Assembly (NCBI GenBank): GCA_963663965.2
Contig: CAXXFK010000018.1
Coordinates: 78,935 to 142,934 of the forward strand
DNA: 64,000 nt
Source: Sedimentisphaerales bacterium
GTDB lineage: Bacteria; Planctomycetota; Phycisphaerae; Sedimentisphaerales; SM23-30
Direction of reading: 5' to 3'
The notes beneath the pieces were generated by a model. That model did not search any database and was not told the origin of the DNA. It was given only the letters and a program-made list of their open reading frames with translations. The translations under genes were made by a program, and so were the position numbers. Shown here piece after piece: positions 3,277-31,243 of the stretch. Positions within the stretch are counted from its first letter, which is position 1; every line of letters begins with the position of its first letter.

Positions 3277-3455
3277 AGTTTTTGTCAAAAACGCGGTTAT
3301 AATCGGTATACCTTACCTGAATTACGGCCGGAAAAGTAAAGGAAAGTAGATATCCAGTCTTGAAATATCGCTTTGATTATGGTATAATAACCGTATTATT
3401 TTGTGTTAATGTGTAGTGTACAAAGTGATATTTAGCAAAACCGAAGGAGTTGAAA

Positions 3456-4055
3456 ATGCTGAAAAAATGTCTATCGGTCTTATTGTTGATGGCGCCATTT
3501 GCGATGGGAAATGTGACCTTTCAGGATGATTTTGAAGGGGACCTTTCGCAATGGATCGGAAAAACAAATCAGGTCCATCATGGCGTGATTGCTGACGATC
3601 CGCTGAATTCGGGCAATAGTGTCTTGAAGTTCTCGCGCACGAATTCGAGTGGCGATATATTTTCGACGCCCCTGTTGAGTTATCAAGATGGTCCTATTAC
3701 CTTGTCGTTTGATTATCTGGGTATTTCGGATAATGGCGGCGCGGTGGCTGATTCGGGCGGCTTTGTGGGCTTTTCCTATGGCCTGGCGGGCACTCATTAC
3801 TGGAAACTGGCCACCCAGGGCAGCTATTCGGGTGTGGAAGAGCATCTGATTGACGATGGCAAATGGCACAGCTATTCACTGGTTATCAATCCGACGCAGG
3901 ATTTTCATATTATGATCGAAGATTTTGTCAATCCGGCCGGTGACGCTTATTTCGATAATATCAAGATCACCAATGCCGCCGTACCGGCGCCGGGCGCGTT
4001 GATCCTGGGTTCGCTGGGGACAGGACTGGTTGGCTGGATCCGCCGCAAGAAATAA
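3456..4055 (+). CDS. Secreted PEP-CTERM sorting-domain protein
   Basis: Signal peptide MLKKCLSVLLLMAPFAMG and a C-terminal PEP-CTERM-type signal VPAPGALILGSLGTGLVGWIRRKK. GAAGGAG lies about 8 nt upstream of ATG 3456. Confidence 0.8.
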   Translation: MLKKCLSVLLLMAPFAMGNVTFQDDFEGDLSQWIGKTNQVHHGVIADDPLNSGNSVLKFSRTNSSGDIFSTPLLSYQDGPITLSFDYLGISDNGGAVADSGGFVGFSYGLAGTHYWKLATQGSYSGVEEHLIDDGKWHSYSLVINPTQDFHIMIEDFVNPAGDAYFDNIKITNAAVPAPGALILGSLGTGLVGWIRRKK

Positions 4056-4084
4056 GTTTTGTTGTTAATATTAGAATCAAGAAA

Positions 4085-4109
4085 GCCGTCCTGAATGGGC
4101 GGTTTTTTT
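4085..4109 (+). terminator. Rho-independent terminator
   Basis: Stem CCGTCC / GGGCGG (one G-U pair), loop TGAAT, followed by T7, about 30 nt after the stop at 4055. Confidence 0.6.
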
Positions 4110-4132
4110 ATGCGCGGGGATGATACTAATGT

Positions 4133-4640
4133 GTTGATATTGGTTGGGCGGGGGTATTCCAGGGTGGACAAGCCGCAACCCAAAGAAAAAATCGATCACA
4201 CAAAGCCACAAAGGCACAAAGATATATACAGCCATTTAGACAGGATTACAGGATCAACAGGATAAAAAGTTCGGGACCATTAAATTATCTGGTAAGATGA
4301 AGTCATTACTTTGCTTATAAAGCATAAGAACAAAAAGCTTGCTAAGAAAACAAAGAAATGAGGGATTGTAGTACGGAAAGGGAAAATAAAATACATTTTC
4401 ACCGTGTAGTAAGTGAAGGGAGTTAAGGAATGGCCGGAGAGATGAAAAAAAACAGCCTTTTTAGACAGGATTACAGGATTTACAGGATTTAATGGGAATT
4501 CATATAAAATATAACAGCCTTTTGAACCGCAGATGGACGCAGATAGACGCAGATAAAAACCGATTTAAGTAATTATAATAAAATAACTTAGAACCACGTA
4601 AAAACGCGGAAAGCCACGGAAGAAAACAGGTATAAAATAG
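4133..4640. repeat. Composite word-repeat module (single copy of the family also found at 54955-56170)
   Basis: Short tandem octamer words: CACAAAG x3 (4196-4221), ACAGGAT x3 (4239-4263 and again 4464-4490), GCAGATGGAC/GCAGATAGAC (4524-4560), CACGnAA words (4591-4630). Blocks GGACAAGCCGCAACCCAAAGAAAAAAT and AACCGCAGATGGACGC...GATAAAAA...TTTAAGT...TTAGAACCACG recur at 55161-55256 and 56060-56110. Confidence 0.7.
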
Positions 4641-5584: not shown

Positions 5585-5720
5585 GGGGAATGACTTTGGG
5601 AAATATACAAGTTAACTTTGAGGTTAGGATATAAGCTTACGTATCATTTCGAATAAATATTCAAGCATTGAATTTACGAAATTTTCATTTCTTATGGCGG
5701 CAAATCAATTTTCTTAAAAT

Positions 5721-5743
5721 CAGACTATAGTCTGAAGACAGTC
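5721..5743. promoter_or_regulatory. C-box-like operator palindromes upstream of the controller HTH gene
   Basis: Perfect 14-nt palindrome CAGACTATAGTCTG (5721-5734) containing GACT-ATA-GTC, followed by a GACAGTC half-repeat (5737-5743). GATAAT lies at 5745-5750. Confidence 0.4.
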
Positions 5744-5827
5744 GGATAATAAATGTTTACTTTAGTCTGCAAGCGAGAATCAGCAGCAGAAAGCTTGCTT
5801 ATCTATTCAATGAAAGGACTTACTAGC

Positions 5828-6043
5828 ATGCTGGGAGATACTTTACGTTACTACCGTAAAAAAGTTGGTTTAACGCAAGAGCAATTAGCTGAGAAAGCAG
5901 GCATCCATCGAACTTATGTAAGCCTGCTTGAACGAAACCTCAAATCACCAACAATAGACACTTTATTTCTCATATGTAATGCGCTTCATGTGAAACCCAG
6001 TAGTTTGATCAAAGCATTAGAAACTGAACAAGAAAAGAAATAG
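5828..6043 (+). CDS. XRE-family HTH protein, R-M controller (C) protein-like
   Basis: ORF 5753..6043. HTH_3 signature LRYYRKKVGLTQEQLAEKAGIHRTYVSLLERNLKSPTIDTLFLICNAL. AAAGGA lies 9 nt upstream of ATG 5828, giving a 72-aa C-protein-sized product; ATG 5810 is an alternative. It sits directly upstream of the methyltransferase. Confidence 0.75.
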   Translation: MLGDTLRYYRKKVGLTQEQLAEKAGIHRTYVSLLERNLKSPTIDTLFLICNALHVKPSSLIKALETEQEKK

Positions 6044-6062
6044 AGTGCTCTTGGATATAAAT

Positions 6063-7595
6063 ATGAAAATACCAATAATAGATTTATTTGCGGGGCCGGG
6101 AGGATTAGGGGAAGGCTTTTCGGCATATCAAAATAAAGAAGCTGAACAACCATTCGAAGTCATAAAATCGATTGAAAAAGATCAGATTGCACACAAAACA
6201 TTATTATTAAGGTCTTTTATTCGTAAATTCCCTTCAGATAAAAAGCCAGAAAAATACTTTAAATTTATTCAAACAAATTGGAATCTGAATAAGTTTAATA
6301 ATTTGCTTGATTGTAAGGAAGGGGCGGAAGCACGAAGAGAGGCATTATGTCTTGAACTTGGTAAAGATAATGAAGTAATTGATGAAGAAATAAACCAATC
6401 CTTATCTGAAATAATACTAAATAATAGACATTGGGTTCTCATTGGTGGTCCACCCTGCCAAGCTTATTCGCTGGTTGGCAGGTCAAGAAATAAGGGTAAA
6501 CAAGGTTGGACATTAGATAATGATTATAGGTCGCATCTATATCAAGAGTATTTGAAAGTTATAGGTAGATATCAGCCATCAGTATTTGTCATGGAGAATG
6601 TGAAAGGAATTCTATCAGCACGATTGAATGAAGGATTAATATTTGAAAAAATAATAAAGGATCTGGAACGACCAAACGAAGTCAAGTTAGAGGGAATTGT
6701 TGAACCAATAACGGGAAAAAAAATAACATATCGATTGTATTCATTCGTGAAAGAACCCGAATTATTTATAAACCTTAAACCAAAAGATTATATAATTAAG
6801 TCTGAAGATTATGGAATACCACAAAATAGACATCGAGTTATTTTGTTAGGCATCAGAGAAGATCTGAATGTAAAATTAACCCTTTTAAAAAAGAAAGAAA
6901 AAAAAATAACCGTATGGGAAGCTATTGGTGATCTACCTTCGGTGATGAGTGGGATTTCTAATAGAAATATTAATTTGTCAGAGTTTGATCAACAGCTGAA
7001 AAAGTACGCTGAAATACAAGAAATGTTATCAAGTGAATTCAAAAAACTAGTCTTAGATAACGATGTGTCGAAGGTAATAAAAAAAAGAATATATCAAATT
7101 AATAAAAATAATGGCAGAAAACCTTCGGTGTTTAATAAAGAATGGTTTCTTTGTGAAGATTTAAATGGTCATATTTGTAATCATGAGTCACGTAACCATA
7201 TTCGTTCTGATTTGCTGAGATATTTTTTCGTTTCGTGTTTCGGGGAAGCAAAAGACAGAACGCCTAAGCTGAGCGAATGGCCAGGTGAATTATTTCCAGA
7301 TCATAAGAATGCGAAATCCGGACATTTTGAAGATCGCTTCAGGGTGCAATTAAGGAACGAACCTTCAACTACAATTACCTGTCATATAGCAAAAGATGGT
7401 CATTATTATATTCATCCGGATCCAAGGCAATGTCGAAGTTTAACTGTTAGAGAAGCAGCAAGATTGCAAACATTTCCTGATGATTACTTTTTTTGTGGTA
7501 ATAAAACGAGTCAATATCAACAGGTTGGTAATGCTGTTCCTCCATTATTGGCCTATCAATTGGCTGATGTAGTATTCAAAGTATTAGAAGATTGA
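6063..7595 (+). CDS. dcm: DNA (cytosine-5)-methyltransferase
   Basis: All the canonical m5C MTase motifs are present: I IDLFAGPGGLGEGF, IV GGPPCQAYS, VI ENVKGIL, VIII QNRHRVILLG, IX/X REAARLQTFPDDY...QVGNAVPPLLA. Confidence 0.95.
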   Translation: MKIPIIDLFAGPGGLGEGFSAYQNKEAEQPFEVIKSIEKDQIAHKTLLLRSFIRKFPSDKKPEKYFKFIQTNWNLNKFNNLLDCKEGAEARREALCLELGKDNEVIDEEINQSLSEIILNNRHWVLIGGPPCQAYSLVGRSRNKGKQGWTLDNDYRSHLYQEYLKVIGRYQPSVFVMENVKGILSARLNEGLIFEKIIKDLERPNEVKLEGIVEPITGKKITYRLYSFVKEPELFINLKPKDYIIKSEDYGIPQNRHRVILLGIREDLNVKLTLLKKKEKKITVWEAIGDLPSVMSGISNRNINLSEFDQQLKKYAEIQEMLSSEFKKLVLDNDVSKVIKKRIYQINKNNGRKPSVFNKEWFLCEDLNGHICNHESRNHIRSDLLRYFFVSCFGEAKDRTPKLSEWPGELFPDHKNAKSGHFEDRFRVQLRNEPSTTITCHIAKDGHYYIHPDPRQCRSLTVREAARLQTFPDDYFFCGNKTSQYQQVGNAVPPLLAYQLADVVFKVLED

Positions 7596-7597
7596 TA

Positions 7598-8005
7598 ATG
7601 ACTGATAATGTAAGTAAAGAAAAGCGTAGTTGGAATATGTCACGCATCCACTGCAAAAATACAAAGCCTGAAAGGCAAGTGAGGTCGATTTTACATATGA
7701 TGGGATTTCGTTTTCGTTTACATCGAAAAGACTTGCCTGGCAAGCCAGATATTGTATTACCAAAGTATAAAACGGTTATATTTGTACATGGTTGTTTCTG
7801 GCATAGGCATAAAGGGTGTAAATATGCTTATACACCTAAAAGTCGACAGGAATTCTGGAAAAAAAAATTCGAAGATAATTCAAAAAGAGATAAAGACGTA
7901 ATAGATGAACTTAAAATGCTGGGGTGGAAAGTCATTATAATCTGGGAATGTGAAATTAAAAAACCGGATATTATTGTTGGTAAATTAGCCACTATTGCAA
8001 CATAA
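7598..8005 (+). CDS. vsr: Very short patch repair (Vsr) endonuclease
   Basis: Vsr signature NTKPERQVRSILHMMGFRFRLHRKDLPGKPDIVLPKYKTVIFVHGCFWHRH...IIIWECE. It overlaps or abuts the dcm stop (TGA 7593-7595). Confidence 0.9.
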   Translation: MTDNVSKEKRSWNMSRIHCKNTKPERQVRSILHMMGFRFRLHRKDLPGKPDIVLPKYKTVIFVHGCFWHRHKGCKYAYTPKSRQEFWKKKFEDNSKRDKDVIDELKMLGWKVIIIWECEIKKPDIIVGKLATIAT

Positions 8006-8006
8006 A

Positions 8007-8732
8007 TTAATTTTTTCTAAACTTTTCAAATTCTTCCGGTAAAAGAGTTAAAATCATATCTGGAGTCATGAAATACAGATCCCAAGTTAAGTTGAATTGA
8101 TCGATTATATCAGCGAGTCTTCTTGGACTTCCACCGCCTTTGCCTCCCGATCCTTTTTTGTTACTTCTTGTTTTTGGATTATAATATAAGGTGTATGTTG
8201 CTTCAATCAGTGATTTATTAGTAATTAATTCTTGTCTTGATGCTATTTGTTCGTGAAGATCTCCCAATTTATCAATATCACCTGATAACAATGCCATAGC
8301 TCTTTCTGGTTTGTCTTTATGAAAATTATAAATAAGATATGGGCCTCTTAAAAGATGGCGATAGTATGTTTGAAAATTGGATATTTCAGGAACCCATCTG
8401 TATCTTTTACCTGGTTTATAGCGATTACCATGCGTTTTTGGGCATAACTGATCAAAAAAGAAGAGTGATAACCATGCCCAGATTCCTTTATCTTTTAAGA
8501 CAAGTGGATAATCTAGGTCACAAAAAAGATCATGAAGGTATCGAGCCATTTCCAACTTATTGGTAAATGTTACTTTTTTGACGAAAGAATTCGAAACACC
8601 ATCTGAATAATCTGGATTATTCAGGATATGGACTGGGGGTGATTCGGGATTATCAGTATCTAAACTATCTAAGAATTCATGAAACTTGAGAATGCCAGAG
8701 TCTTTAAGTTTTCTAAGTTTGATGTTTTGCAT
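8007..8732 (-). CDS. Hypothetical protein (last gene of GHKL operon), no recognisable motif
   Basis: ORF 8007..8738. ATG 8732 lies 2 nt after the preceding stop, with GGAG 7 nt upstream. Codon usage is AT-rich like its neighbours. A Gly-rich patch KKGSGGKGGGSPRR lies near the C-terminus. No nuclease or NTPase motif was seen. Confidence 0.7.
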   Translation of the reverse strand: MQNIKLRKLKDSGILKFHEFLDSLDTDNPESPPVHILNNPDYSDGVSNSFVKKVTFTNKLEMARYLHDLFCDLDYPLVLKDKGIWAWLSLFFFDQLCPKTHGNRYKPGKRYRWVPEISNFQTYYRHLLRGPYLIYNFHKDKPERAMALLSGDIDKLGDLHEQIASRQELITNKSLIEATYTLYYNPKTRSNKKGSGGKGGGSPRRLADIIDQFNLTWDLYFMTPDMILTLLPEEFEKFRKN

Positions 8733-8734
8733 AG

Positions 8735-9499
8735 TCAATCTCCATTCTGAATGAAGTCGCAGTAGATATCAGAAATTTTGTATTTTCTTGCAAAAGCAAT
8801 GACAACACCATCTACCCATTCATCGAAATCTTCATTATTATTATCCAAATCAAATTCAGGGATTTTACCTGTACCTGGTAATGATTCGGCAAATAAAAGC
8901 CATTTCTTTTTCCATATATCATTATCGTTTTCTTCATCTTCTGGTGGATTACTTGTAATATATTGCAGAACACTTCTAATTATTGCCGGGTAAACCAGTG
9001 TAATAAATTCCTTAGAGCAACAAATTTGATCACGACTACCTGCTTTACTGTTTATCAATAGTATGGGGTAATTATTGTCAAATTCAACTTTCCATATTTC
9101 TTCAATATCATCAACGGATTTTACTGGTAAAATGCACTCTCTGTTACTTTCAAGTTCATCAAATTTGTATGGTTTCAGGCGGTCTGCAAATGCAAGCAAT
9201 TTGCCTGAAGTGTGTTGTGTATCCGTTACTTTAACTCGAAATAGTATGCCCTCTATGTCATCGAATTCATTAAGCTCACAATTATTTGGTTTAGTGATAT
9301 TTGATATTGTGCCAAAGGGATATCGCATCCATAGGCAACGCCTATATGCCTCTATAAAAACATACGCATCTTCAGGTAAGTTGTATTTGGATAGTGAGAG
9401 ATCGGCATCAAAATTCAGATGATTACCTTTTTGGGATACGACAATTGAAATATCGTTACGATTTAATTTTTTCCGACCAGTATAGTTAAGCCGTGGCAT
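8735..9499 (-). CDS. Hypothetical protein (third gene of GHKL operon), acidic C-terminal half
   Basis: 254-aa ORF. ATG 9499 overlaps the end of the upstream gene by 14 nt, with GGAGG 8 nt upstream. No recognisable catalytic motif. Confidence 0.7.
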   Translation of the reverse strand: MPRLNYTGRKKLNRNDISIVVSQKGNHLNFDADLSLSKYNLPEDAYVFIEAYRRCLWMRYPFGTISNITKPNNCELNEFDDIEGILFRVKVTDTQHTSGKLLAFADRLKPYKFDELESNRECILPVKSVDDIEEIWKVEFDNNYPILLINSKAGSRDQICCSKEFITLVYPAIIRSVLQYITSNPPEDEENDNDIWKKKWLLFAESLPGTGKIPEFDLDNNNEDFDEWVDGVVIAFARKYKISDIYCDFIQNGD

Positions 9500-11417
9500 T
9501 TTCTAAACCTCCTTCATTTTCTGTAATTGACGGTTTTACAAGCAAATCGCGGTTAGGATCAAAACCGATTAGCTTTAAGCGAAAATCGCAATTGAGAATT
9601 TCGGCGATAATAACATTGCCCCTAGTCTGGATAATTTTAAGACCTTTAGATTCAGGCTTCATTTTTTCAATGCGAAAATCGTTGATATTATATTTCGGTT
9701 TACGGTCTCTACGATCATAAAATATTTTAATCTGCATTTGCGCGGGCAGATTTAAACTACCTTCGCCCTTGGTAAGTGTAAAGCCGCCATTGATTTTGTT
9801 TAAACGATACCGCTTTGGCTTGTGGGGTATTTCTAAATGGGGCGGTCCGGTTCTATCGCCACGATCTTCTTTTTTCTTTCTTTTTTCTGGTCGTGATATG
9901 GTAATATCAGATGATGGTATTGAAAAGAAATCCAAGAGTAAATTATGGTCTTCCTGCTTAGCACTTTCTTCAGAAATGCCAATGATTTCACTTACGCTTT
10001 TCTTGATAAAAGTGAGGGTTTTTGAGCCATAGGTGTACCTGTTTTTGAAGTTATCAGATGTTGTTGACCATTCGGTGTGTGATGGGTTTTCAGCATTACC
10101 GAGAAAGTCTGCTATATGTGGTTCGTCAGCGATTACTAGTGAAACCACACTTCGATTAGTCGGTATTCTTTTTTCATCTGGTATAATCAGGCCTTTTCGA
10201 ATAAATACGGGATAACCTTTAGAGTAGCTTGGGTGTCTTTGTATGAAGACTTTGAAATAAGTCTCATGTTCCACTTGTTTTATTTTGTCTTTGATGTATA
10301 CCGGCACTTTAATGGCAATATTTTCTTCACTAACTAAGCGCTTACGAATAATATTTTGAATCTCAGCAGGTACTAATTTTTCGGACCATTCTGGTGCTGC
10401 AGTTGATACTGGACATATTGTTTCAAGGCATTCATCACTAGGCAACTTGTTGGCCCATTTAGCGAGTTCAATTTTCGCATGCAATTCTTTGTTGTCGCTT
10501 AGGAAGTCTGAATTAAGAATAGCTTCTATTGAACCAGATTCAATTCTAGTATTATTGTCGGGAGTAGCTATATCAACATATAATTCACCTGTTATAATTG
10601 GCCAAAAGTAATGTGAAATCAGTGCCTGCAGTATTGATTGTTCATTAATGTCATCATCTATAAATGGCACAATTAATGAAAGGCCGGGTTCACTTGAACG
10701 TGCCAAGTGAAAATCATTGCAGAATCTAGTGATTTCGTCTGAGTGGCCATTATCATCAAGAGGAACAGGTATATAATCGTTTTGTATTGGAATCTGTTTT
10801 GCATACCAACCATCTGATGTAAAATCTTCGCTATTAACTTTATGAGACCTCAATAAACATTGTCCAAAGAATATTTTTTGGTTATCTTCCGAACGAACTG
10901 ACAGGCCGAAGAATGCTTTGATATTGCTGGCCTTTGGGAAAACAATTTTTCCAATTCCATGTCTGCCTCTATCTGAATCATGTTTACCCGATTGACCTTC
11001 TGCTCTGAAAAAGTAATAAAATGGATTTGAATCTTTTTCCTCTGGTTCAGAATATTCTATTAAATTACCATTCAATCCAGATGTATTAAAATCCTCAATA
11101 ACAACATATTTACATGGTTGGTTTCTGTCCGGGCAATCTTGTAATCCGTTATTTTTTGCATTTAAATGATTCCATAGTTCTTCAGTAAAATAAAATCGAG
11201 CTTTTTCGGGTTGCAAAGCACCATTATCATTAGATAAATAAATCCTTATTCCAACCGGATTGTTCAAATCAATTCTGGCATCTAAGGAATTTTGGATTGC
11301 TTCTCGAATCAAACTTGTCGAGATAGAGTTGTCTGACTCAAAAAATTTGCTGTGCATTGGTTCCCTTTTTTTGCCCTGTGGCAAAATACGATCAAAAAAC
11401 CAACCAAAACCGGACAT
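9486..11417 (-). CDS. GHKL (Bergerat-fold) ATPase, MORC/paraMORC/sacsin-like N-terminal domain with an unknown C-terminal ~400 aa
   Basis: 643 aa. N-box LIREAIQNSLDA (ExxxNxxDA), a DxGxG-like motif VVIEDFNTSGLNG, and a G-loop GRHGIGKIVF, in the canonical order within the first ~170 aa. AAGGAG lies 6 nt upstream of ATG 11417. Confidence 0.75.
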   Translation of the reverse strand: MSGFGWFFDRILPQGKKREPMHSKFFESDNSISTSLIREAIQNSLDARIDLNNPVGIRIYLSNDNGALQPEKARFYFTEELWNHLNAKNNGLQDCPDRNQPCKYVVIEDFNTSGLNGNLIEYSEPEEKDSNPFYYFFRAEGQSGKHDSDRGRHGIGKIVFPKASNIKAFFGLSVRSEDNQKIFFGQCLLRSHKVNSEDFTSDGWYAKQIPIQNDYIPVPLDDNGHSDEITRFCNDFHLARSSEPGLSLIVPFIDDDINEQSILQALISHYFWPIITGELYVDIATPDNNTRIESGSIEAILNSDFLSDNKELHAKIELAKWANKLPSDECLETICPVSTAAPEWSEKLVPAEIQNIIRKRLVSEENIAIKVPVYIKDKIKQVEHETYFKVFIQRHPSYSKGYPVFIRKGLIIPDEKRIPTNRSVVSLVIADEPHIADFLGNAENPSHTEWSTTSDNFKNRYTYGSKTLTFIKKSVSEIIGISEESAKQEDHNLLLDFFSIPSSDITISRPEKRKKKEDRGDRTGPPHLEIPHKPKRYRLNKINGGFTLTKGEGSLNLPAQMQIKIFYDRRDRKPKYNINDFRIEKMKPESKGLKIIQTRGNVIIAEILNCDFRLKLIGFDPNRDLLVKPSITENEGGLENATA

Positions 11418-11429
11418 ATGAAACTCCTT

Positions 11430-11672
11430 TCATAATTCAAAATTTCGTTTTGATTTTGAAAACGTGAACCTCATTTTAGAAATTTTTATTTCTTTTTCTA
11501 ATGCCGAAAAAATTTTATTGATATCTTGCTCTGAATATTCATACGAGCTTTTGTTTGAACAATTACCAAGTAGTCTAATCTTTTCAATTATCTCATTAGT
11601 TCTTCGACTTGCAATACGTACAAAACGATCTTTGCGAGACTCGTCTTTTTTTGAAATATTACTAATTTTCAT
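11430..11672 (-). CDS. Small basic helical protein (first gene of GHKL operon)
   Basis: 80 aa from ATG 11672 (MKISNISKKDESRKDRFVRIASRRTNEIIEKIRLLGN...). Its TGA (11430-11432) lies inside the SD of the GHKL gene. There is no SD of its own. The longer 118-aa version would start upstream of the predicted promoter. Confidence 0.45.
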   Translation of the reverse strand: MKISNISKKDESRKDRFVRIASRRTNEIIEKIRLLGNCSNKSSYEYSEQDINKIFSALEKEIKISKMRFTFSKSKRNFEL

Positions 11673-11703
11673 AATATGTATTCTTAAATATGGAAATATA
11701 TGT

Positions 11704-11731
11704 AATATATTCAAAATGCTACATGTGTCAA
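11704..11731 (-). promoter_or_regulatory. Sigma-70-like promoter of the GHKL operon
   Basis: On the minus strand: TTGACA (11731-11726), a 16-nt spacer, then TATATT (11709-11704), about 30 nt upstream of ATG 11672. Confidence 0.45.
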
Positions 11732-14802: not shown

Positions 14803-15067
14803 AGCAGACGCCCCCGGGCTTATCCGTCGTCTGGATTTTTCCATGAATTAGAGTCGGCCAGCAATGAAGCACTACGCGGTCATCCAATTCGACTGGAATC
14901 CTGGCAGTTATCGCGGTGTCCTCAGTTGGAATCATGCCCGATAAACCTATTGGCGGTCAATATAGCGCCACGGGCGGATTTTGCTTGTATTGGGTCTCTC
15001 GATGGGTTATAATGATGGTTTGCATTGGAGACCCGAAAGAAGAATACTATTATTATTGAAGGAGAAA

Positions 15068-15787
15068 ATGATGAAGAGAATGTCTGTATGTGTCGGTATG
15101 TTTTTACTGGCGGCGATATTGTGTCCGATAAGTATGGCCCACGCGGGTGTTACGTATTATTGGACGGACTGGACGGACGCGACGACCGGTCTGGCGGGAT
15201 CGGCAGATGGTTCGATCGCAACCGGGAGCGAGACGATTGGTATCAGTTATACTGGTGAGGTTAATTTTGCCCAGACCAATAGTGGGACCAATTACTGGAC
15301 CGGTCTGAAAAATGGCGGCAGTACGCCGGCCACAACTTACACGGCCGCCGGCCTGGTGGATAACGGCCCGGTCAGCAGCGATATTATCAGCCTCAAGGGC
15401 GGTAACCAGATTGTTAATACAATTACCTTTTCACAGGCAGTTGTTGATCCGGTACTGGCCATTATGAGTATGGGACAAAATTCTGTACCGGTTAAATATT
15501 ACTTTGACACACCGTTTGATGTGTTAAGTTTTGGCCAGGGTTACTGGGGCAACGGCACGTTGGCCGAAGATGCCGGTAATGTGTTATTGGGTTATGAAGG
15601 TCATGGTATTATCCAGTTAAAAGGGACTTATACCGCCATCAGCTGGACCTGTCCGACATTTGAAAACTGGCACGGCTTTACCGTGGGTGTCGCGGGCGCG
15701 GCTATGCCGGCGGTTCCGGCACCGGGCGCTTTGATCCTGAGCGGACTGGGCTCTGGCCTGGTAGGCTGGATACGTCGCAAGAAATAA
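15068..15787 (+). CDS. Secreted PEP-CTERM sorting-domain protein
   Basis: GAAGGAG precedes ATG 15068. Signal peptide MMKRMSVCVGMFLLAAILCPISMAHA. The C-terminus VPAPGALILSGLGSGLVGWIRRKK is nearly identical to that of the 3456..4055 protein. Confidence 0.8.
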   Translation: MMKRMSVCVGMFLLAAILCPISMAHAGVTYYWTDWTDATTGLAGSADGSIATGSETIGISYTGEVNFAQTNSGTNYWTGLKNGGSTPATTYTAAGLVDNGPVSSDIISLKGGNQIVNTITFSQAVVDPVLAIMSMGQNSVPVKYYFDTPFDVLSFGQGYWGNGTLAEDAGNVLLGYEGHGIIQLKGTYTAISWTCPTFENWHGFTVGVAGAAMPAVPAPGALILSGLGSGLVGWIRRKK

Positions 15788-15821
15788 GAATCGCATTAAG
15801 TTACGTTCAGAAACAATGATC

Positions 15822-15848
15822 AAGCTCGTCTTTTTGGCGGGCTTTTTT
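15822..15848 (+). terminator. Rho-independent terminator (weak)
   Basis: Stem AAGCTCGTC / GGCGGGCTT with two G-U pairs, loop TTTTT, followed by a T-run. Confidence 0.45.
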
Positions 15849-16157
15849 AATGCGCGAAGAATTCCGGCAATATTGGGCGGCCCATGCGAATATATTGTGA
15901 AATGATGGATTATTCGTGTTATTTTCGCATGGGAAACAGTCACTTAGGCTATGAGAAGCCCAGAGCAGTGGAAAAACAAAGGATGGCATCGAATTTTCGG
16001 TAGATCATGGATTGATAAAAGTCGATGAGATTGCTATAATAATTTATTCCAACAGGATTTGAAGAGAATCAATCATGCCTTATTCCTGCTTAGCCTGCCT
16101 CATCATGAGTCCCCCCTTAGATTTAATCTCCCTTATTGATCTCCCGAGGAATGAACA

Positions 16158-19100
16158 ATGACGTTAACTTTGAGAACTATTCTGACGGTTTTATGTTTTG
16201 TGTCTGCCGGTATGCCATTGTGCGCGGCGCCCTATTTTGGCGAAGAGACAACGGCGTTACAGCCGGATGGGACGTCGGTGACGGTGGTGTTGTGGGGAGA
16301 TGAATATTATATTCGGGCGGAGACACCGGATGGGTATACGGTGGTGCGCGATCCGGAGACCGGGTGGATCTGTTACGCGGAGTTGAATGCAGATGGGAGC
16401 GACATGTTGTCGACAGGATTGCCCTATGAAGGGGAATCGCTGGAGAGTGGGGTGACGACGGGGAATGGGGCCGTGGGCAGTCAGGCACAGATCAAGATTC
16501 AGGTGCGGCGCGAGCGGATGCGGGGTGTGGGTAAGAAGATCGATTTGAAACGGGACGCGCGTCTGGCGAAGGTGCAGGAGAACCGGCGGTTATTGATGGG
16601 TGAGCGTTATGACGAGGAGACAGGCATGGTGCTGGCGGCGCCGGGTGATGAGTCGGGCGTGATCATACTGGGAGAGGCGCCAGCGATTGAACCGGCATTG
16701 ACCGGGACGATGACCGGGTTGACACTGCTGGTGGATTTTCCGGATTTACGCGGGACGATTCCCCGGGAGGCTATCGATGATTATTGCAACACGCCGGGCT
16801 ATACCGGCTATAGCAACAACGGCTCGGTGCGGGATTATTTTTATGATATTTCCAATGGGAAACTGACCTATCTCAACACTGTGACTGAATATTATACCGC
16901 CAGGAACAGCCGGTCTTATTATACAGATGAGTCGATTGGTTATGGCACCCGGGCGCAGGAATTGATTAAAGAGGCGCTGGATTATCTGGAGAGTCAGAAC
17001 TTTAATTTTTCTCAGATTACGGTCAAGAATGGCCGGTTTCAGGCTTTGAACGTCTTTTACGCGGGCAACGCGGACAATAACTGGGCCAAAGGGATCTGGC
17101 CGCATAAAGGATATTATGGCAATTGGGTGTCGCAGAATTATGGTATCCGGACCGGGGATTATCAGATTTCCAATATCGGGTCCAACCTGCGTCTGGGTAC
17201 ATTCTGTCATGAGAATGGCCATATGATTCTGGGATTGCCGGATTTGTATGATTATGGCGGGGAATCGCGGGGTGTGGGTAATTATGACCTGATGGCCGGG
17301 GGCGGCAGTTCGACCAATCCGGTACCGGTTAATCCGTATTTCCGGGCGTTGAACGGCTGGGAAAATGTGGTTGATATCACCGAAAGCGGTGGAGGGGTAG
17401 AATATTCCCATACCTCCAATTCGTTTACAACGTATAAATATACGAACGCGTCCTATACGAATGAATACTTCATGATCGAAAGCAATATCAAGACGGGGCG
17501 GCGTTCGGCCATGCCGGATGAGGGCTTATTGATCTGGCATGTTGATACCGCCGGCAGTAACGATAATGAACAGATGACGGCAAGTTCGCATTATAAAGTA
17601 TCCGTTGAGCAGGCGGACGGTCTGTTTCAGTTGGAAAACAATAATAACAGCGGCGGATCAAACGATTTGTTTCATGCCGGGAATGCTGACCAGTTCAGCG
17701 CCACTACGACACCGGATTCGGATTGGTGGAGTGGTGAAGAATCGGGCCTGTTGATCAGTAATATCAGTGCGGTGGGGACACCGATGACCTTTATCGCAGT
17801 GAATGTCAACAATGACTTCTGGGTGACACCCGGTGGTGCCGGTGTGCGGTTTACCCGTCTGGAAGACGGACCGATTGTGCCTGGGAGCCAGGCGCTGACA
17901 TTACATAATAATAACTCCTCGCGTACCGTTTCGTTTACGGCTCAGACGGGTTCGAGCTGGTTGGGTCTCTCGCCGACCAGCGGTCAAATCAGTCCGCAAT
18001 CGACCGCAACGATTACGGTGGTTCCACAGGGAAACCTGTCGACACTGGATCCTCAAGCCCTGACGGGAACGATTACCGTGACGGATCTTGGCACCAGTAT
18101 TCAATATTCACGAAACGTGGTTCTGTCGATTAAAAACCGCCTTGGGGTAGCGTACTGGACGCTGGATGATACCGGCACAGATGAAGCGCTGGATGCGACG
18201 GGTAGCGGTTTCAATGGTATTTTGTCAGGTGGACTATCCTACGCGACCAATAAAGCGGAGGGACGCTTTGGCGATTGCCTGCAATTTGACGGGATTAATG
18301 ATTATATCGATGTTCCCAATGGATTTGAGGATTTCAGTGTGGGGTATACCATTTCATTCTGGGCCAATCCAAGCGCGGCAAAAACCTGGGCACGGTTTAT
18401 CGATTTCGGCAATGGCGCACCCAGTGATAATATTCTGGTTACGCGGCGCAGTAGTTCCAAAGATCTGCAAGTCGACGCATATAAAGGCGCCACCCGGCTG
18501 GGGACACTGATCGTGACGGATGCTATTGAGTTGGATGTCTGGCAGCATTTTGTCGTGGCGGTTGATGATGCCGGGCAGGCTGTTTTGTATAAGAATGGCC
18601 AGTCGATCCAGACGGGGAATCTGGGGATCCTGGAGAATATTACCCGAGGTAACAATTATATCGGGCGAAGCAACTGGGCCGCGGACGCTTACTATGAAGG
18701 GTATCTGGATGATGTGCGGATTTATAACTACGCGCTGACCGGGGAGGAGATTGGTGATTTATATGCCAATGGCGGAGGGAGTTTTAATTTAAGCCCGGCC
18801 AAGGCCGCTTCCGGTGTCTACTGTGACGCGCAGCTGGAGTGGATTCCGGGACCGCTGACCCAAAGGCATCTGGTTTATTTCGGGCAGGATGAGACCCTGG
18901 TTGATACCAGCGATCGTTATGGCGGCGCTTATTTGGCGGTGAGTGAAACCAACCGTTTTGATCCGCCGATGCTGGCCACCGGCCAGGATTATTACTGGCG
19001 GATAGACGATGAACTGATTAACGGACAGGTTGTCAAAGGTGTGACCCGTCGTTTTCATACGACCGGGTCGATTACTTATGAAGTATGGAAAGGAATCTCC

Positions 19101-24800: not shown

Positions 24801-26024
24801 TCAGGACAATTCTGGACCCAGACCCTGAATTGTAAATGATGCCATTTGATACTGTTCCAGGACTGTCATGACATCATCCCGGCTGACTTTTTCGAGTAAG
24901 AGGAGTTCTTCTGCCAGGGGAATGTTTTCGTGTCGATAGGTCCAGTCGAAACCCAGGGGCACCAGGCGGCCCATGGGCAGTTCACCGTGAAGCGTAAGCG
25001 CTGATGCGATTTTATTTTTATTAGCGATCAGTTCATTGTCCCGGATCCCGTCCTGCATGAGTTTGGTATAGACGGATCGAACGGTATCCAGAACTTTTTC
25101 GGTGTTTTGCGGGTCGCAGGAGATATAGGTAAAAAACGCGCCGGTTCCATCCATGGCGTCGTAATCCATATCGGCGCTATCGGCCATTGCATTATCGACC
25201 AGGGCCCAATATAAGCGGGAATTGGCGGTATCGCCAATAATGTTGGATAGGATCAGGGCGGCGCGTCTTAAATCATCCTGGGAGGAAGGACCGGCATTGA
25301 TCAGGCATAAATGCTGGCGGACGATATTGGCACGCGATTCCATCCGGATCTGCCCGGTACCAGAAAAATGGCTGAGTGAACGCTGGGGGTTGGTGGGTTC
25401 CCAATGGCCGCAAAATCGATGGGCCTGTTCCACCAGACGATCCCAATCGATTTTGCCGCAGGCAGCCAGCACCATATTATCCGGCGCGTACCGGCGATGG
25501 AAATAATCCCGCATCTGATCGGCGGTGAGGGCTGTAATGCTTTCATCGGTACCGAGTACGGAATTGCCACAGCTATGGTTGCCGAAATGCAGTTGCCGGC
25601 AGCGGTCCATGACATCGAAATGCGGCATATCCTTGTACATGGCAATTTCTTCCAGGATCACGTTCTTTTCCATGTTGAAATCATCATCGCGCAAGGCGGG
25701 TCTCAATAGGTCGGCCCATAATTCGATGATTTGATTCTGATATTCCGGCAGAATGGCCGCGTAAAAAACGGTATTTTCTTCAGAGGTAAACGCGTTATAT
25801 TTGGCGCCCATCCGGTCGAACTCCAGATTCACTTCGAGCGCGGATCGTTTATGAGTCCCTTTAAACATCATATGTTCCAGAAAATGGCTGACTCCGGCCA
25901 CTTCGGGCCATTCATCGCGTGATCCGGTTCGGGTAAAAAAACCCAGCGCCATGGACCGGGCGGAAGGCATTTCTTCGGCTATTATGGTTAAACCATTATT
26001 TAGAATGGTTTTATGGAATTTCAT
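24801..26024 (-). CDS. M16 (pitrilysin/insulinase) family peptidase
   Basis: Inverted zinc motif HFLEHMMFKGT near the N-terminus; 407 aa, typical M16 length. Confidence 0.9.
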   Translation of the reverse strand: MKFHKTILNNGLTIIAEEMPSARSMALGFFTRTGSRDEWPEVAGVSHFLEHMMFKGTHKRSALEVNLEFDRMGAKYNAFTSEENTVFYAAILPEYQNQIIELWADLLRPALRDDDFNMEKNVILEEIAMYKDMPHFDVMDRCRQLHFGNHSCGNSVLGTDESITALTADQMRDYFHRRYAPDNMVLAACGKIDWDRLVEQAHRFCGHWEPTNPQRSLSHFSGTGQIRMESRANIVRQHLCLINAGPSSQDDLRRAALILSNIIGDTANSRLYWALVDNAMADSADMDYDAMDGTGAFFTYISCDPQNTEKVLDTVRSVYTKLMQDGIRDNELIANKNKIASALTLHGELPMGRLVPLGFDWTYRHENIPLAEELLLLEKVSRDDVMTVLEQYQMASFTIQGLGPELS

Positions 26025-26218
26025 ATTGGTTCCTTAGTTAGGGACATTTGATATAACAGGGTATTATTTCAGGCATTATAGTGATACGTACCTGATGCAT
26101 CAATGAAATGATTGGTACTTTTCAAAGAGGTTAAATGTCATAGCTGATTCAGTTGATAAAAAAACACCGGTCATTGATCAATTTACCGGTGTTCGTGATG
26201 TTAGTTGTATTTTGAGAA

Positions 26219-26992
26219 TTAAGGGACAACAATATCCGTTCTTGGTTCAAAACCTTTATGCCATGACAGGGTCCACAAATCAGCTAATTTGACTGCCTCC
26301 GCATGGCCATCCAGGAATGAAACGGTAATGGCTTTATTATGACGGTTCAGCCAGAACCGGCCCATATTGGTGTTCATACCACCCTGATAATATCCTGTTT
26401 CCAGGTAAGATTCGGTTTTAGTAAATGTTGGATTGTCAGTGTCCAACGGCCAGCCATCCACCCAAACGCAATCGGCAAACACGGGCACCTCTGCACCATG
26501 CTTGACACTTTCAGCGTTGTTACCGAAATCTCTGGTTTGATAAGATGCGGCATATGGATCATCCGGGCCATACAGCCAGCCGTTAATACCGTAACTACCA
26601 TGACTACGAACGCCGCCGCTTGGATTCCAATCCCATGGACGTTTTACCGTTCCAATGTAATCATTTTGGGGATTATTGGGCAAATCGATGTTTTCATAAG
26701 GTGCTTTGGTACAGAATCGGTTTGCAGATACCTTATCAATAGACTGGGCTATCGAATTCATCCATAAGTTTTTGGTGTTATAGCTGTCCTGATAGGGCAG
26801 AAGCTTGCCATCATAGTTGGCAAAATAAAGTTCCAGCGCCTGTCTTAATGTGCGGTTATTATTTAAGCAGACTTGAGTTTTTGCCTGTTCCCTGGCTTTA
26901 CCCAGCGCCGGCATTAAGATTGCCACCAGCAAGGCGATGATCGATATGACCACGAGTAACTCAATTAACGTAAAGGCTTTTTTGTTTTTCAT
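26219..26992 (-). CDS. Prepilin-type N-terminal cleavage/methylation domain protein with H-X9-DG motif
   Basis: [28 protein letters not shown]-terminus. C-terminal [17 protein letters not shown], i.e. H followed by 9 residues then DG (TIGR04294-type). Confidence 0.85.
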
Positions 26993-27280
26993 TGGATTTG
27001 TCCATAAAATAACATAAGAATTATTTATTTAACCGAATTCTTCAGATCAGTTGTTATATGAAATTTATTTTGGCCAGGATTACAAATTATGTGACATAAT
27101 AAATTGATCAACTCTCTCTATTTTTTTCGATGATTTCCTGGGATTTTAAAGTTTTTGGTTGCTTAATTGTATAATATTTCTATTTTGTTGCTTTTTGGGC
27201 TAATATTATCGCGTTCAGGCGTATGTTTTATTATTTAAAAAATATTGAAACTTACTCAGATTGAAATAGGTAATTTGATG

Positions 27281-30992: not shown

Positions 30993-31081
30993 CTAAAAAT
31001 TCATTCTGGGCTGCAAGCAGGCACTCCGCGTGCAGCGAAATAGTGTTTCCCTCAGGGCAGTGTCACAAAAAACCATAAATA
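30993..31081. repeat. Dispersed repeat R2, copy A
   Basis: CTAAAAATTCATTCTGGGCTGCAAGCAGGCACTCCGCGTGCAGCG...CACAAAAAACCATAAATA matches 32909-32998 (CTGAAAATTAATTCAGGGTTGCAAGCGGGCATTCCGCGTGCAGCG...CATAAAAAACCGTGAATA). Confidence 0.5.
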
Positions 31082-31200: not shown

Positions 31201-31243
31201 TTGCGGACAATGATATTTTCCTTTCGCGAAAAAATACCAGTCC

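What the first reader, a model, noticed from the sequence alone, without database searches (positions are those of the whole stretch)
8007..11731. Tightly coupled four-gene GHKL-ATPase operon with no recognisable nuclease, convergent on a C/Dcm/Vsr module: candidate undescribed restriction-like defence system
Seen in sequence. Four minus-strand genes form one packed unit: 11672->11430 (80 aa, basic), 11417->9486 (643 aa), 9499->8735 (254 aa) and 8732->8007 (241 aa). The unit sits behind a TTGACA-N16-TATATT promoter. The small gene's TGA lies inside the AAGGAG of the 643-aa gene. The 254-aa gene starts 14 nt before the 643-aa gene ends (GGAGG upstream). The last gene starts 2 nt after the preceding stop (GGAG upstream). 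The 643-aa protein has the Bergerat-fold ATP-binding motifs in canonical order: LIREAIQNSLDA, VVIEDFNTSGLNG, GRHGIGKIVF. These are closest to the MORC/paraMORC/sacsin HATPase_c_3 type. Its remaining ~400 aa and the two downstream proteins show no PD-(D/E)xK, HNH, GIY-YIG, PLD, helicase or P-loop signature that I can see. The operon ends 1 nt from the end of vsr, inside the same AT-rich island. That is exactly where the restriction component of an R-M system would sit. Established knowledge. MORC-like GHKL ATPases were predicted computationally to be embedded in R-M-like loci (Iyer, Abhiman and Aravind 2008), and MutL-like GHKL proteins occur in some validated multigene defence systems. I know of no characterised mechanism for a compact GHKL + two unknowns + small protein cassette paired with Dcm/Vsr. 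Inference. This may be a methylation-gated, ATP-dependent multi-subunit effector whose nuclease or other killing activity lies in a novel fold.
Basis: partly seen in the sequence, partly recalled or inferred. Interest (0 to 1): 0.85.

Follow-up and report, generated by a model that had tools for sequence, protein, structure and literature searches.

The report
Dcm-linked GHKL ATPase three-gene cassette
A conserved trio of genes (a topoisomerase-VI-B-like ATPase plus two proteins with no recognisable relatives, one of them with a fold not seen in solved structures) sits beside a cytosine methyltransferase/Vsr repair pair and is probably the untested killing arm of a restriction-like defence system whose distant relatives are already listed as a defence candidate.

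Summary
Four packed minus-strand genes (80, 643, 254 and 241 aa) converge on a C-protein/Dcm/Vsr operon inside an AT-rich island.

- **Core unit:** three genes, A-B-C. They keep the same order and overlaps in about 48 of 79 related loci. The 80-aa gene is an accessory, present in 9 loci.
- **A:** a GHKL ATPase with transducer and C-terminal beta-sandwich. Its model (pLDDT 88) best matches topoisomerase VI-B, then Hsp90, SMCHD1 and MutL. No Pfam model hits it.
- **C:** a confident model (pLDDT 93) with no match in PDB or BFVD.
- **B:** no detectable homology. It could not be modelled.
- **Linkage to Dcm:** in the window's clade, 31 of 39 loci carry Dcm, usually with Vsr and often in the same operon. 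A Planctomycete clade has 0 of 41.
- **Not wholly undescribed:** profile comparison ties A and C (B only weakly) to cassettes that PADLOC lists as PDC-M33, an untested candidate, and to Pfam DUF6339. An ExxxH motif fits the published description of 'paraMORC2'.
- **Complication:** seven relatives also carry an EcoRII-like nuclease next to Dcm, so A-B-C need not be the only restriction component.

Most likely this is a methylation-gated, ATP-driven effector with an unidentified nuclease. Nothing has been tested experimentally. I rate it a new variant of a known kind, of moderate to high interest.

The parts
5720..5743 (+). C-box-like operator: perfect 16-bp palindrome TCAGACTATAGTCTGA followed by GACAGTC, upstream of the controller gene
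   Evidence: The exact GACTATAGTC occurs only here in the 64-kb window and is absent upstream of the A-B-C operon. That it acts as an operator is inferred from the known GACT...AGTC C-box pattern (my own knowledge).
5753..6043 (+). Controller (C) protein, HTH_3. The true start is probably an internal ATG near 5810 or 5828.
   Evidence: Pfam HTH_3 2e-17. Several PADLOC 'Control_protein' models hit, down to 5.7e-12.
6045..7595 (+). C5-cytosine DNA methyltransferase (Dcm-type, 516 aa)
   Evidence: Pfam DNA_methylase 4.6e-49, TIGR00675 3e-42, PADLOC DrmMII and MTase_II models.
7592..8005 (+). Vsr very-short-patch repair endonuclease; overlaps the end of dcm by 4 nt
   Evidence: Pfam Vsr 1.2e-31, TIGR00632 2.4e-44.
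8007..8732 (-). Protein C (241 aa): remote member of the DUF6339 / PDC-M33C superfamily, mostly helical, fold without a solved relative. Invariant W85, W87, C97, Y123-Y124-R125-H126, Q162, R204-R205, Q212, T216, D218, E234.
   Evidence: Alignment. AF2 pLDDT 92.9, pTM 0.89. Foldseek best E 3.4 in PDB and 1.4 in BFVD. hhalign to DUF6339-type proteins: 97.7%, E 1.5e-12, 229 columns.
8735..9499 (-). Protein B (254 aa): unknown fold. Large family with N-(Y/F)-T-G-R at the N terminus; E50, Y52, R59, G63, R88 nearly invariant. From the sequence pattern, an apparently strand-rich N-terminal half and an acidic, apparently helical C-terminal half.
   Evidence: 2207 clusters at 50% identity. No Pfam, PADLOC, NCBIfam or PDB hit.
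9486..11417 (-). Protein A (643 aa): GHKL ATPase (about 1-255), helical and transducer region (about 259-500, with R407 and E443-x3-H447), disordered basic linker (504-526), C-terminal beta-sandwich (537-633)
   Evidence: AF2 pLDDT 87.9. Foldseek: Topo VI-B 1e-11 to 1e-9, Hsp90 about 2e-8 to 6e-5, SMCHD1 4e-6, Topo II ATPase, MutL NTD. Invariant motifs. PADLOC PDC-M33A 9.6e-26.
11430..11672 (-). Small basic protein (80 aa): accessory gene of unknown role, conserved directly upstream of A in 8 other loci
   Evidence: phmmer and tblastn hits in L003, L015, L029, L030, L032, L036, L053, L060. Alignment with invariant F17, A21, R24, S39, N40, Y44.
11704..11731 (-). Promoter-like site TTGACA-N16-TATATT, 32 nt upstream of the small gene's ATG
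   Evidence: Best-scoring site in the region (11/12). The total number of sites is not above chance.

Best explanation
The locus is a horizontally acquired, methylation-based defence module made of two convergent operons. One operon (C-box, controller protein, C5-cytosine methyltransferase, Vsr) marks the host's own DNA and repairs the T:G mismatches that 5-methylcytosine deamination causes. The other (small protein, A, B, C) encodes the effector.

A is a Topo VI-B-like GHKL ATPase. Like its relatives, it should dimerise on ATP binding and close as a clamp on DNA. B and C are made in fixed proportion with A through overlapping genes and evolve in step with it. They probably form a complex with A and supply target reading and the damaging activity, most likely DNA cleavage by a catalytic site not yet recognised. 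C is the best candidate because it is the most conserved. DNA lacking the Dcm mark would be attacked.

Shown: gene structure, the fold of A, the novelty of C's fold, co-inheritance of A-B-C, and linkage to Dcm/Vsr.

Inferred: complex formation, gating by methylation, DNA cleavage, and defence itself.

The cassette is a divergent branch of the three-gene superfamily that PADLOC lists as the untested candidate PDC-M33.
For: - **Packing and coupling:**. The 13-17 nt A/B overlap is kept in L001-L003.
- **A is a GHKL ATPase:** invariant ATP-binding residues, also kept in archaeal and Firmicute relatives. Model pLDDT 87.9 matches Topo VI-B, Hsp90, SMCHD1 and MutL.
- **A-B-C is one unit:** same order in about 48 of 79 species loci. 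Pairwise distances correlate at 0.70-0.81.
- **Linkage to Dcm:** 31 of 39 loci in the window's clade against 0 of 41 in the sister clade, p = 4e-15. Dcm lies on the same strand in 24 of 30 cases, with gaps often 0-50 bp. Four different arrangements occur. Vsr is present in 25 of 30. Exceptions are contig ends or IS insertions.
- **Distant relatives repeat the pattern:** haloarchaeal plasmids have dcm next to A'-B'-DUF6339; an E. faecalis plasmid has AIPR next to A'-B'-C'.
- **Prior prediction:** PDC-M33 was proposed from embedding in BREX, DISARM, type I R-M or Hma systems.
- **Mobility and control:** AT-rich island; controller protein with a C-box.
- **Precedent:** a GHKL ATPase controls a nuclease in a validated defence protein (VcSduA/paraMORC3, PMC12137116).
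- **Not phage-borne:** no relative in 2.9 million viral contigs.
Against: - No nuclease fold or motif was found in A or C, and no hit of any kind for B. B was not modelled, so the effector activity is entirely inferred.
- Seven related loci already carry an EcoRII-like endonuclease beside Dcm/Vsr. There, A-B-C is not needed to complete an R-M system.
- A Planctomycete clade carries A-B-C, A-B or A alone among housekeeping genes with no methyltransferase, sometimes as several loci per genome.
- The methyltransferase tracks A-B-C only weakly (rho 0.20-0.27). That is unlike an R-M pair with matched specificity, although MTase distances are near saturation.
- The C-box is found only upstream of the methyltransferase operon, not the effector operon.
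- There are no experimental data for this cassette or for PDC-M33.
Confidence: 0.5

Rival explanations
1. A-B-C is a self-contained defence or abortive-infection system that merely rides with methyltransferase-based systems (the 'embedded' pattern). It senses infection by some other cue and is not gated by Dcm methylation.
For: - PDC-M33 was defined by embedding inside other defence systems.
- The E. faecalis relative sits with AIPR and no Dcm.
- L077 sits next to Mrr with no Dcm.
- The Planctomycete cassettes have no methyltransferase.
- EcoRII-like enzymes already complete the R-M in 7 loci.
- ABC and MTase congruence is weak.
Against: - In the window's clade the neighbour is almost always specifically Dcm(+Vsr), not a mix of defence genes. 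It is frequently in the same operon, with gaps of 0-50 bp.
- Apart from EcoRII-C, no other defence family recurs in more than three of the 147 neighbouring ORFs scanned (DUF6036 3; AbiEii and AAA_21 2 each).
Confidence: 0.2
2. A-B-C is a portable helper for very-short-patch repair. A would be a MutL-like GHKL clamp that, with B and C, recruits or stimulates Vsr at T:G mismatches created by 5-methylcytosine deamination. It would limit the mutational cost of carrying Dcm rather than attack foreign DNA.
For: - Vsr accompanies the cassette in 25 of 30 Dcm-linked loci.
- A resembles MutL and other GHKL clamps.
- E. coli MutL is known to stimulate Vsr (established knowledge; the parallel is drawn in Iyer et al. 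2008).
- The absence of any nuclease in A-B-C fits a non-nucleolytic helper.
Against: - The haloarchaeal relatives have Dcm with no Vsr annotated nearby.
- L009 has Dcm but no Vsr within 8 kb.
- The E. faecalis, Rhizobium and Planctomycete relatives have neither.
- A controller protein and an AT-rich mobile island fit a toxic effector better than a repair factor.
Confidence: 0.1
3. A-B-C does not cut DNA. It is an ATP-driven clamp that binds and compacts or blocks unmethylated DNA, interfering with replication or transcription in the way MORC and SMCHD1 act in eukaryotes. In Planctomycetes the family may serve a cellular chromosome function.
For: - No nuclease signature anywhere in the cassette.
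- SMCHD1 and Hsp90-type clamps are among the structural matches.
- A has a basic disordered linker and a beta-sandwich domain.
- Planctomycete genomes carry A-solo and A+B paralogues among housekeeping genes.
Against: - There is no precedent in bacteria.
- The many invariant polar residues in C look more like an active site than a scaffold.
- The hypothesis is hard to reconcile with the need for a controller protein unless binding itself is toxic.
Confidence: 0.1

Closest known systems
PADLOC phage defence candidate PDC-M33 (Payne et al. 2024, bioRxiv 10.1101/2024.01.29.577857; cassette CAS_00129, three families, count 98 in supplementary file 8), whose third gene corresponds to Pfam DUF6339
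   Same: - Three genes in the same order and of similar sizes: GHKL of about 630-670 aa, a second protein of about 250-345 aa, a third of about 230-260 aa.
- A is homologous over its full length (hhalign 99.9%, E 4e-36), and so is C (97.7%, E 1.5e-12).
- The N-box, G1, G2, R407 and ExxxH motifs are shared.
- Relatives sit beside a C5 methyltransferase on haloarchaeal plasmids.
   Different: - The window's B and C, and 112 of their relatives, do not reach the PDC-M33B/C models at E <= 0.01.
- A matches PDC-M33A only over its N-terminal 270 residues.
- The B-to-B' link is weak (41%).
- The window's clade has its own near-obligate Dcm+Vsr linkage and a GGKGxGSPRR loop in C that the haloarchaeal proteins lack.
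- PDC-M33 itself is untested, so it supplies a name, not a mechanism.
paraMORC GHKL ATPases of restriction-modification loci (Iyer, Abhiman and Aravind 2008, PMC2292703), especially paraMORC2
   Same: - GHKL plus S5/transducer module with intact ATP-binding motifs.
- Neighbourhoods with cytosine methylases and Vsr.
[quoted passage not shown] A has an invariant E443-x3-H447 in that region, conserved across the superfamily.
   Different: - No paraMORC2 sequence was available, so membership rests on a verbal description only.
- The published neighbourhoods centre on superfamily II helicases and restriction-endonuclease-fold nucleases. The window has neither. B and C are not mentioned in that paper.
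- No Pfam HATPase_c_3 hit.
Topoisomerase VI B subunit (type IIB topoisomerase; M. mazei 9o0g_B, S. shibatae 1mx0)
   Same: Best structural match to the model of A (E 1e-11 to 1e-9). The long alignments (761-763 columns) to the 605-606-residue M. mazei chains span most of A.
   Different: - Sequence identity is 10-12% and TM-score about 0.3 over the whole chain.
- There is no Topo VI-A/Spo11-like partner. C has no structural match at all. B has no Toprim or TP6A_N hit.
- So this is a similarity of architecture, not evidence of topoisomerase activity.
VcSduA / paraMORC3 (GHKL-Shedu; Adams et al. 2025, PMC12137116)
   Same: A validated anti-phage protein in which a GHKL ATPase is required together with a nuclease. 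It shows that GHKL-controlled nucleases do act in defence.
   Different: It is a single polypeptide with a recognisable PD-(D/E)xK (DUF4263) nuclease and no dependence on a methyltransferase. The window's cassette has separate partners with no recognisable nuclease.
[not shown]
   Same: Same theme of a GHKL protein encoded next to a C5 methyltransferase and Vsr.

Membership tests
GHKL (Bergerat-fold) ATPase superfamily | N-box (ExxxNxxD), G1 box (DxGxG-like) and G2 box (GxxGxG) in canonical order | tested here: met
   E39, N43, D46; D109, G114, G117; G151, G154, G156, K157 are invariant in 51 sequences and kept in archaeal, Firmicute and Rhizobium relatives.
GHKL (Bergerat-fold) ATPase superfamily | Bergerat fold followed by a transducer (S5-like) domain, seen in structure | tested here: met
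   AF2 model pLDDT 87.9. Foldseek probability 1.00 to Topo VI-B, Hsp90, SMCHD1 and Topo II ATPase, and 0.92 to MutL NTD. This is a predicted structure, not an experimental one.
GHKL (Bergerat-fold) ATPase superfamily | Match to a curated GHKL sequence model (Pfam HATPase_c / HATPase_c_3) | tested here: not met
   No Pfam hit at E <= 0.1 for A or at E <= 0.05 for 51 relatives. No NCBIfam hit. No PDB hit by sequence profile.
paraMORC2 (Iyer et al. 2008) | [quoted passage not shown] | tested here: met
   E443 and H447 are invariant (ENPAHTEW) and conserved in distant relatives. The criterion is taken from the paper's text.
paraMORC2 (Iyer et al. 2008) | Sequence-level membership in the published family | not testable with these tools
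paraMORC2 (Iyer et al. 2008) | Neighbourhood with a superfamily II helicase and a restriction-endonuclease-fold nuclease | tested here: not met
   No helicase or nuclease family in the window's operon. An EcoRII-like nuclease is present in 7 related loci only.
Topoisomerase VI (type IIB) | B-subunit architecture | tested here: met
   Top Foldseek hits 9o0g_B, 9o8p_B and 1mx0, E 1e-11 to 1e-9.
Topoisomerase VI (type IIB) | Partner A subunit (Spo11-like winged helix with catalytic Tyr, plus Toprim) | tested here: not met
   - C has no structural match to anything in the PDB.
- B has no Pfam or PADLOC hit, including Toprim, TP6A_N, JetD and GajA models.
- B's N-terminal Tyr is Phe in Planctomycete relatives.
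- B's structure was not modelled, so a cryptic Toprim is not strictly excluded.
PADLOC PDC-M33 | Hit to PDC-M33A | tested here: met
   9.6e-26, but over residues 32-303 only. hhalign to PDC-M33A-positive proteins is 99.9% over the full length.
PADLOC PDC-M33 | Hits to PDC-M33B and PDC-M33C | tested here: not met
   No hit for the window's B or C at E <= 0.1, nor for 112 relatives at E <= 0.01. Profile-profile comparison: C 97.7%, B 41%.
PADLOC PDC-M33 | Three genes in the order A>>B>>C | tested here: met
   Same order and sizes in the window, in L083-L087 and in CAS_00129.
Pfam DUF6339 (PF19866) | Score above the gathering threshold (23.2 bits) | tested here: not met
   - The window's C gives no hit. 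The best relative, P0161, scores 19.6 bits, E 8e-4.
- 2 of 58 C relatives hit at E <= 0.01.
- Remote homology is supported by hhalign at 97.7%.
Type II restriction-modification system | Cognate DNA methyltransferase (with controller protein and C-box) | tested here: met
Type II restriction-modification system | Restriction endonuclease with a known nuclease fold | tested here: not met
   No PD-(D/E)xK, HNH, GIY-YIG or PLD family hit in any of the four proteins. No EcoRII-like gene in the window.
Type II restriction-modification system | Cleavage of unmethylated DNA that is blocked by the cognate methylation | not testable with these tools
   Needs experiment.

The most novel reading that the evidence does not exclude
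A-B-C is a new class of ATP-dependent restriction enzyme. A Topo VI-B-like GHKL clamp captures DNA that lacks the Dcm mark. A protein with a previously unseen fold (C, the DUF6339 superfamily) is the nuclease, perhaps using its invariant Tyr-Tyr-Arg-His cluster in chemistry unlike the known restriction folds. The same machine would then underlie the untested PDC-M33 candidates in Bacteria and Archaea.
Probability: 0.3. Interest if true: 0.8.

Novelty: new variant of a known kind. Interest (0 to 1): 0.6.

Why it matters
- **Scale without a function.** B alone has about 2,200 clusters at 50% identity, and A has relatives in 394 of 185,579 species genomes. Yet none of the three families has a curated functional name, and the Pfam, NCBIfam and PDB sequence searches run here found no confident relative for any of them.
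- **A possible new catalytic fold.** If this is the effector of a Dcm-gated restriction system, it would add a new DNA-targeting fold. It would also give the first mechanism for the GHKL-plus-Dcm-plus-Vsr theme predicted in 2008 and for the PDC-M33 candidate.
- **A bacterial context for the Topo VI-B architecture.** The system would show that architecture working with partners other than a Spo11-like subunit.
- **Experimentally tractable.** The locus is compact: about 3.7 kb plus a 2.3-kb methyltransferase operon.

Tried and rejected
- **Folding B and C together.** Only C could be modelled with the last job, so B's fold is unknown.
- **PDB sequence-profile searches** for A, B and C found nothing meaningful.
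- **Split Topo VI-A/Spo11 idea (B as Toprim, C as winged helix with catalytic Tyr).**
  - C matches no solved structure.
  - B has no Toprim-family hit, and its N-terminal half looks strand-rich rather than alternating alpha/beta.
  - B's Tyr6 is Phe in many relatives.
  - I rejected this as a positive claim.
- **My recollection that 'PDC-M' meant Millman-derived candidates was wrong.** The paper shows these are candidates from guilt-by-embedding, and the M and S labels appear to correspond to its multi-gene and single-gene candidates.
- **Controller-protein operator upstream of the A-B-C operon:** none found.
- **Island boundaries:** no flanking direct repeats or tRNA.
- **Source contig:** a lookup by exact protein found nothing.
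- **Viral contigs:** no relatives. Plasmid and phage collections hold only distant relatives.
- **Alternative partners downstream of the Planctomycete A-B and A-only loci:** only unrelated housekeeping genes.
- **Literature searches** for DUF6339, PDC-M33, and GHKL with defence found no characterisation of this cassette.

Full report
**1. The observation**

The four minus-strand ORFs are exactly as described: 11672->11430 (80 aa), 11417->9486 (643 aa, 'A'), 9499->8735 (254 aa, 'B') and 8732->8007 (241 aa, 'C').
- A and B overlap by 14 nt.
- There is a 2-nt gap between B and C.
- The small gene's stop abuts the AAGGAG that precedes A.
- One base separates the convergent ends of vsr and C.

On the plus strand lie a controller-type HTH protein (HTH_3 2e-17; PADLOC 'Control_protein' models), a C5 methyltransferase (DNA_methylase 4.6e-49) and Vsr (1.2e-31). 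The 6-12 kb stretch has GC 0.30-0.37 against about 0.5 in the flanks.

The TTGACA-N16-TATATT site is the best promoter-like match in the region, but such sites are no commoner here than chance.

A perfect 16-bp palindrome containing GACTATAGTC sits upstream of the controller gene and nowhere else in the window. It is not upstream of the A-B-C operon.

**2. What the proteins are**

*Sequence models.* None of A, B or C hits any Pfam or NCBIfam model. Neither do 51 relatives of A or 112 relatives of B and C, apart from two weak DUF6339 hits. Sequence profiles find nothing in the PDB.

*Protein A.*
- The three quoted motifs fall on invariant columns: E39/N43/D46, D109/G114/G117 and G151/G154/G156/K157.
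- An AlphaFold2 model (pLDDT 87.9) is matched by Foldseek to topoisomerase VI-B (E 1e-11 to 1e-9, with long alignments to the M. mazei subunit). Hsp90, SMCHD1, Topo II ATPase domains and the MutL N-terminal domain follow.
- A therefore consists of a GHKL ATPase, a transducer, a disordered basic linker (504-526) and a C-terminal beta-sandwich (537-633). No nuclease domain was seen.
- An invariant Arg (R407) and an invariant E443-x3-H447 lie in the transducer region.

*Protein C.* The model is very confident (pLDDT 92.9, pTM 0.89) and mostly helical. It has no significant match in the PDB (best E 3.4) or among viral models. It is the most conserved of the three and has many invariant polar and aromatic residues: W85, W87, Y123-Y124-R125-H126, Q162, R204-R205, D218, E234.

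It belongs to a large family of 2207 clusters at 50% identity. Its conserved polar residues are few: N5, T7, R9, E50, Y52, R59, R88. Its Tyr6 is Phe in many relatives.

**3. Comparative genomics**

A has relatives in 394 species genomes, and 79 loci were examined.
- A, B and C occur together in the same order in about 48 loci.
- The A/B overlap of 13-17 nt is kept in the three loci with called genes.
- Pairwise distances of A, B and C correlate strongly, with rho 0.70-0.81.

A neighbour-joining tree of A splits the loci in two.

*Clade I* spans many phyla and includes the window.
- 31 of 39 loci carry a C5 methyltransferase within 10 kb. The sister clade has 0 of 41 (Fisher p = 4e-15).
- The exceptions are contig ends, a truncated vsr next to an IS66 transposase, a Mutator transposase, and one locus beside Mrr.
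- Dcm lies downstream on the same strand in 15 loci, upstream on the same strand in 9, convergent in 5 plus the window, and divergent in 1. Gaps are often 0-50 bp.
- Vsr is present in 25 of 30.
- The window's convergent layout is therefore a minority arrangement of a unit that is usually a single operon.

*Clade II* is Planctomycete.
- It has A-B-C, A-B or A alone among unrelated housekeeping genes with no DNA methyltransferase.
- There are sometimes two loci per genome.

*Accessory genes.* The 80-aa protein has homologues immediately upstream of A in eight other loci. Other loci carry different unannotated genes in that position, of about 210 aa or about 390 aa.

*Neighbours in clade I.* The most recurrent extra family is the EcoRII catalytic domain. 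It occurs in seven loci, always next to Dcm/Vsr, and not in the window.

*Methyltransferase congruence.* MTase distances correlate only weakly with those of A, B or C (rho 0.20-0.27, Mantel p about 0.004-0.01). This suggests the methyltransferase partner has been exchanged. These distances are near saturation, so the result is soft.

*Mobile elements.* No relative occurs in 2.9 million viral contigs.

**4. Relation to what is known**

*PDC-M33.*
- A hits PADLOC PDC-M33A (9.6e-26) over its N-terminal 270 residues. B and C hit nothing.
- tblastn found distant A relatives on plasmids. In each, two genes of similar size follow A:
  - Haloarchaeal plasmids: dcm | A' (632 aa) - B' (345 aa) - 'DUF6339 family protein' (229 aa).
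  - E. faecalis pJF3A-4253-2: HTH, AIPR, A' (639 aa) - B' (288 aa) - C' (262 aa).
  - Rhizobium pRlX5: A' (670 aa) - B' (260 aa) - C' (257 aa).
- The haloarchaeal and E. faecalis proteins score as PDC-M33A, B or C.
- Profile comparison of the window's families with them gives A 99.9% (E 4e-36, full length), C 97.7% (E 1.5e-12, full length) and B 41% (E 3e-4, C-terminal two thirds).
- The ATP-binding motifs, R407 and the ExxxH motif are shared.

*paraMORC.* Iyer, Abhiman and Aravind (2008) predicted that MORC-like 'paraMORC' GHKL ATPases work in R-M systems with cytosine methylases and Vsr. [quoted passage not shown] I could not test sequence membership.

*Validated precedent.* One paraMORC family is now validated: paraMORC3, the GHKL-Shedu protein VcSduA. 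There the ATPase and a PD-(D/E)xK nuclease are both required.

*Literature.* I found no paper that characterises this cassette, DUF6339 or PDC-M33.

**5. How it most likely works**

*Shown.*
- A compact, co-inherited A-B-C unit.
- A Topo VI-B-like GHKL ATPase with intact catalytic motifs.
- A partner (C) with a fold unlike any solved structure.
- Strong, arrangement-independent linkage to Dcm(+Vsr) in the window's clade.
- A mobile, AT-rich island with a controller protein.

*Inferred.*
- A dimerises on ATP and clamps DNA, as its structural relatives do.
- A, B and C form a complex.
- The complex damages DNA that lacks the Dcm mark.
- C, or possibly B, carries the catalytic site.
- Vsr offsets the mutational cost of 5-methylcytosine.
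- The small protein is an optional regulator or adaptor.

I give this reading a probability of about 0.5.

*What lowers the confidence.*
- No nuclease can be identified.
- EcoRII-like enzymes in seven loci mean A-B-C is not required to complete an R-M system there.
- The Planctomycete clade has no methyltransferase.
- The methyltransferase is only weakly congruent with A-B-C.

*Rivals.*
- An independent defence or abortive-infection system that rides with methyltransferase systems (0.2).
- A MutL-like helper of Vsr repair (0.1).
- A non-nucleolytic DNA clamp or a cellular chromosome function (0.1).

**6. Verdict**

- The cassette is real, widespread and Dcm-linked, and it lacks any recognisable nuclease.
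- It is not wholly undescribed. It is a divergent branch of a superfamily already catalogued as an untested defence candidate (PDC-M33/DUF6339), and it fits the paraMORC theme.
- It is a three-gene core rather than four.
- It need not be the sole restriction component.

I rate it a new variant of a known kind, with interest 0.6. It is a good experimental target because the mechanism, and possibly a new catalytic fold, remain open.

Noticed in passing
window 44408-44714 (+): Two adjacent Rfam matches to group II intron domains D1-D4 (RF02001, 115.7 bits; RF01998, 49.1 bits). They indicate a group II intron far from the finding.
   Followed up: no
L034/L048, L035/L042, L027/L045, L041/L056, L047/L065, L043/L066: Single Planctomycete genomes carry two paralogous loci: one with A alone and one with A plus B but no C. 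Both sit among housekeeping genes with no methyltransferase. This looks more like a vertically inherited cellular function than a mobile defence cassette.
   Followed up: partly
L007 ~15198-16253, L029 8900-10132, L033 ~6500, L060 8441-9295, L069 12480-13706, L072 15143-16351, L075 ~6500: An EcoRII-like endonuclease (Pfam EcoRII-C, best E 1.3e-70) lies next to Dcm/Vsr in seven A-B-C loci. These loci hold a complete conventional R-M-V system plus the cassette. The window has no such gene.
   Followed up: yes
L007 8830-9459, L051 9286-9942, L074 430-1077, L076 ~4000-4500, L080 8438-9916; L039 8808-9998, L077 8807-9955: The position directly upstream of A is variable. Besides the 80-aa protein, there is an unannotated family of about 210 aa (five loci) and one of about 390 aa (two loci). 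The two members scanned individually (L051 9286-9942 and L077 8807-9955) have no Pfam hit. These may be alternative regulators or sensors.
   Followed up: partly
window 5720-5743 and 5758-5767: Classical-looking C-box (TCAGACTATAGTCTGA, then GACAGTC) upstream of the controller gene. A second near-copy (TACTTTAGTC) lies inside the longest ORF, which suggests the real start codon is further downstream (about 5810 or 5828). Here the controller gene heads the methyltransferase operon rather than a restriction gene, which is unusual.
   Followed up: partly
window 3450-4055 (+) and 14981-15787 (+): Two secreted-looking proteins end in almost the same C-terminal tail (VPAPGALILGSLGTGLVGWIRRKK and VPAPGALILSGLGSGLVGWIRRKK). 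These look like PEP-CTERM-type sorting signals. They lie on either side of the AT-rich island.
   Followed up: no
L040 13525-15196: A truncated vsr remnant is followed at once by an IS66-family transposase where relatives have Dcm-Vsr. This is an apparently decayed copy in which A-B-C survives without its methyltransferase.
   Followed up: partly
P0316 (389 aa): A relative of B with a 130-residue N-terminal extension. One member of the scanned B and C set (identity not reported by the tool; plausibly this protein, given its extension) hit PDC-M33A at E 4.5e-5. This could be a natural fusion of the end of A with B, or a gene-calling artefact.
   Followed up: no
window 26000-29000, 31000-32000 and 55000-58000; 32258-32391: Further low-GC stretches (0.37-0.43) elsewhere in the window may be other acquired islands. 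There is also an acidic (Asp/Glu-rich) coding tandem repeat at 32.3 kb.
   Followed up: no
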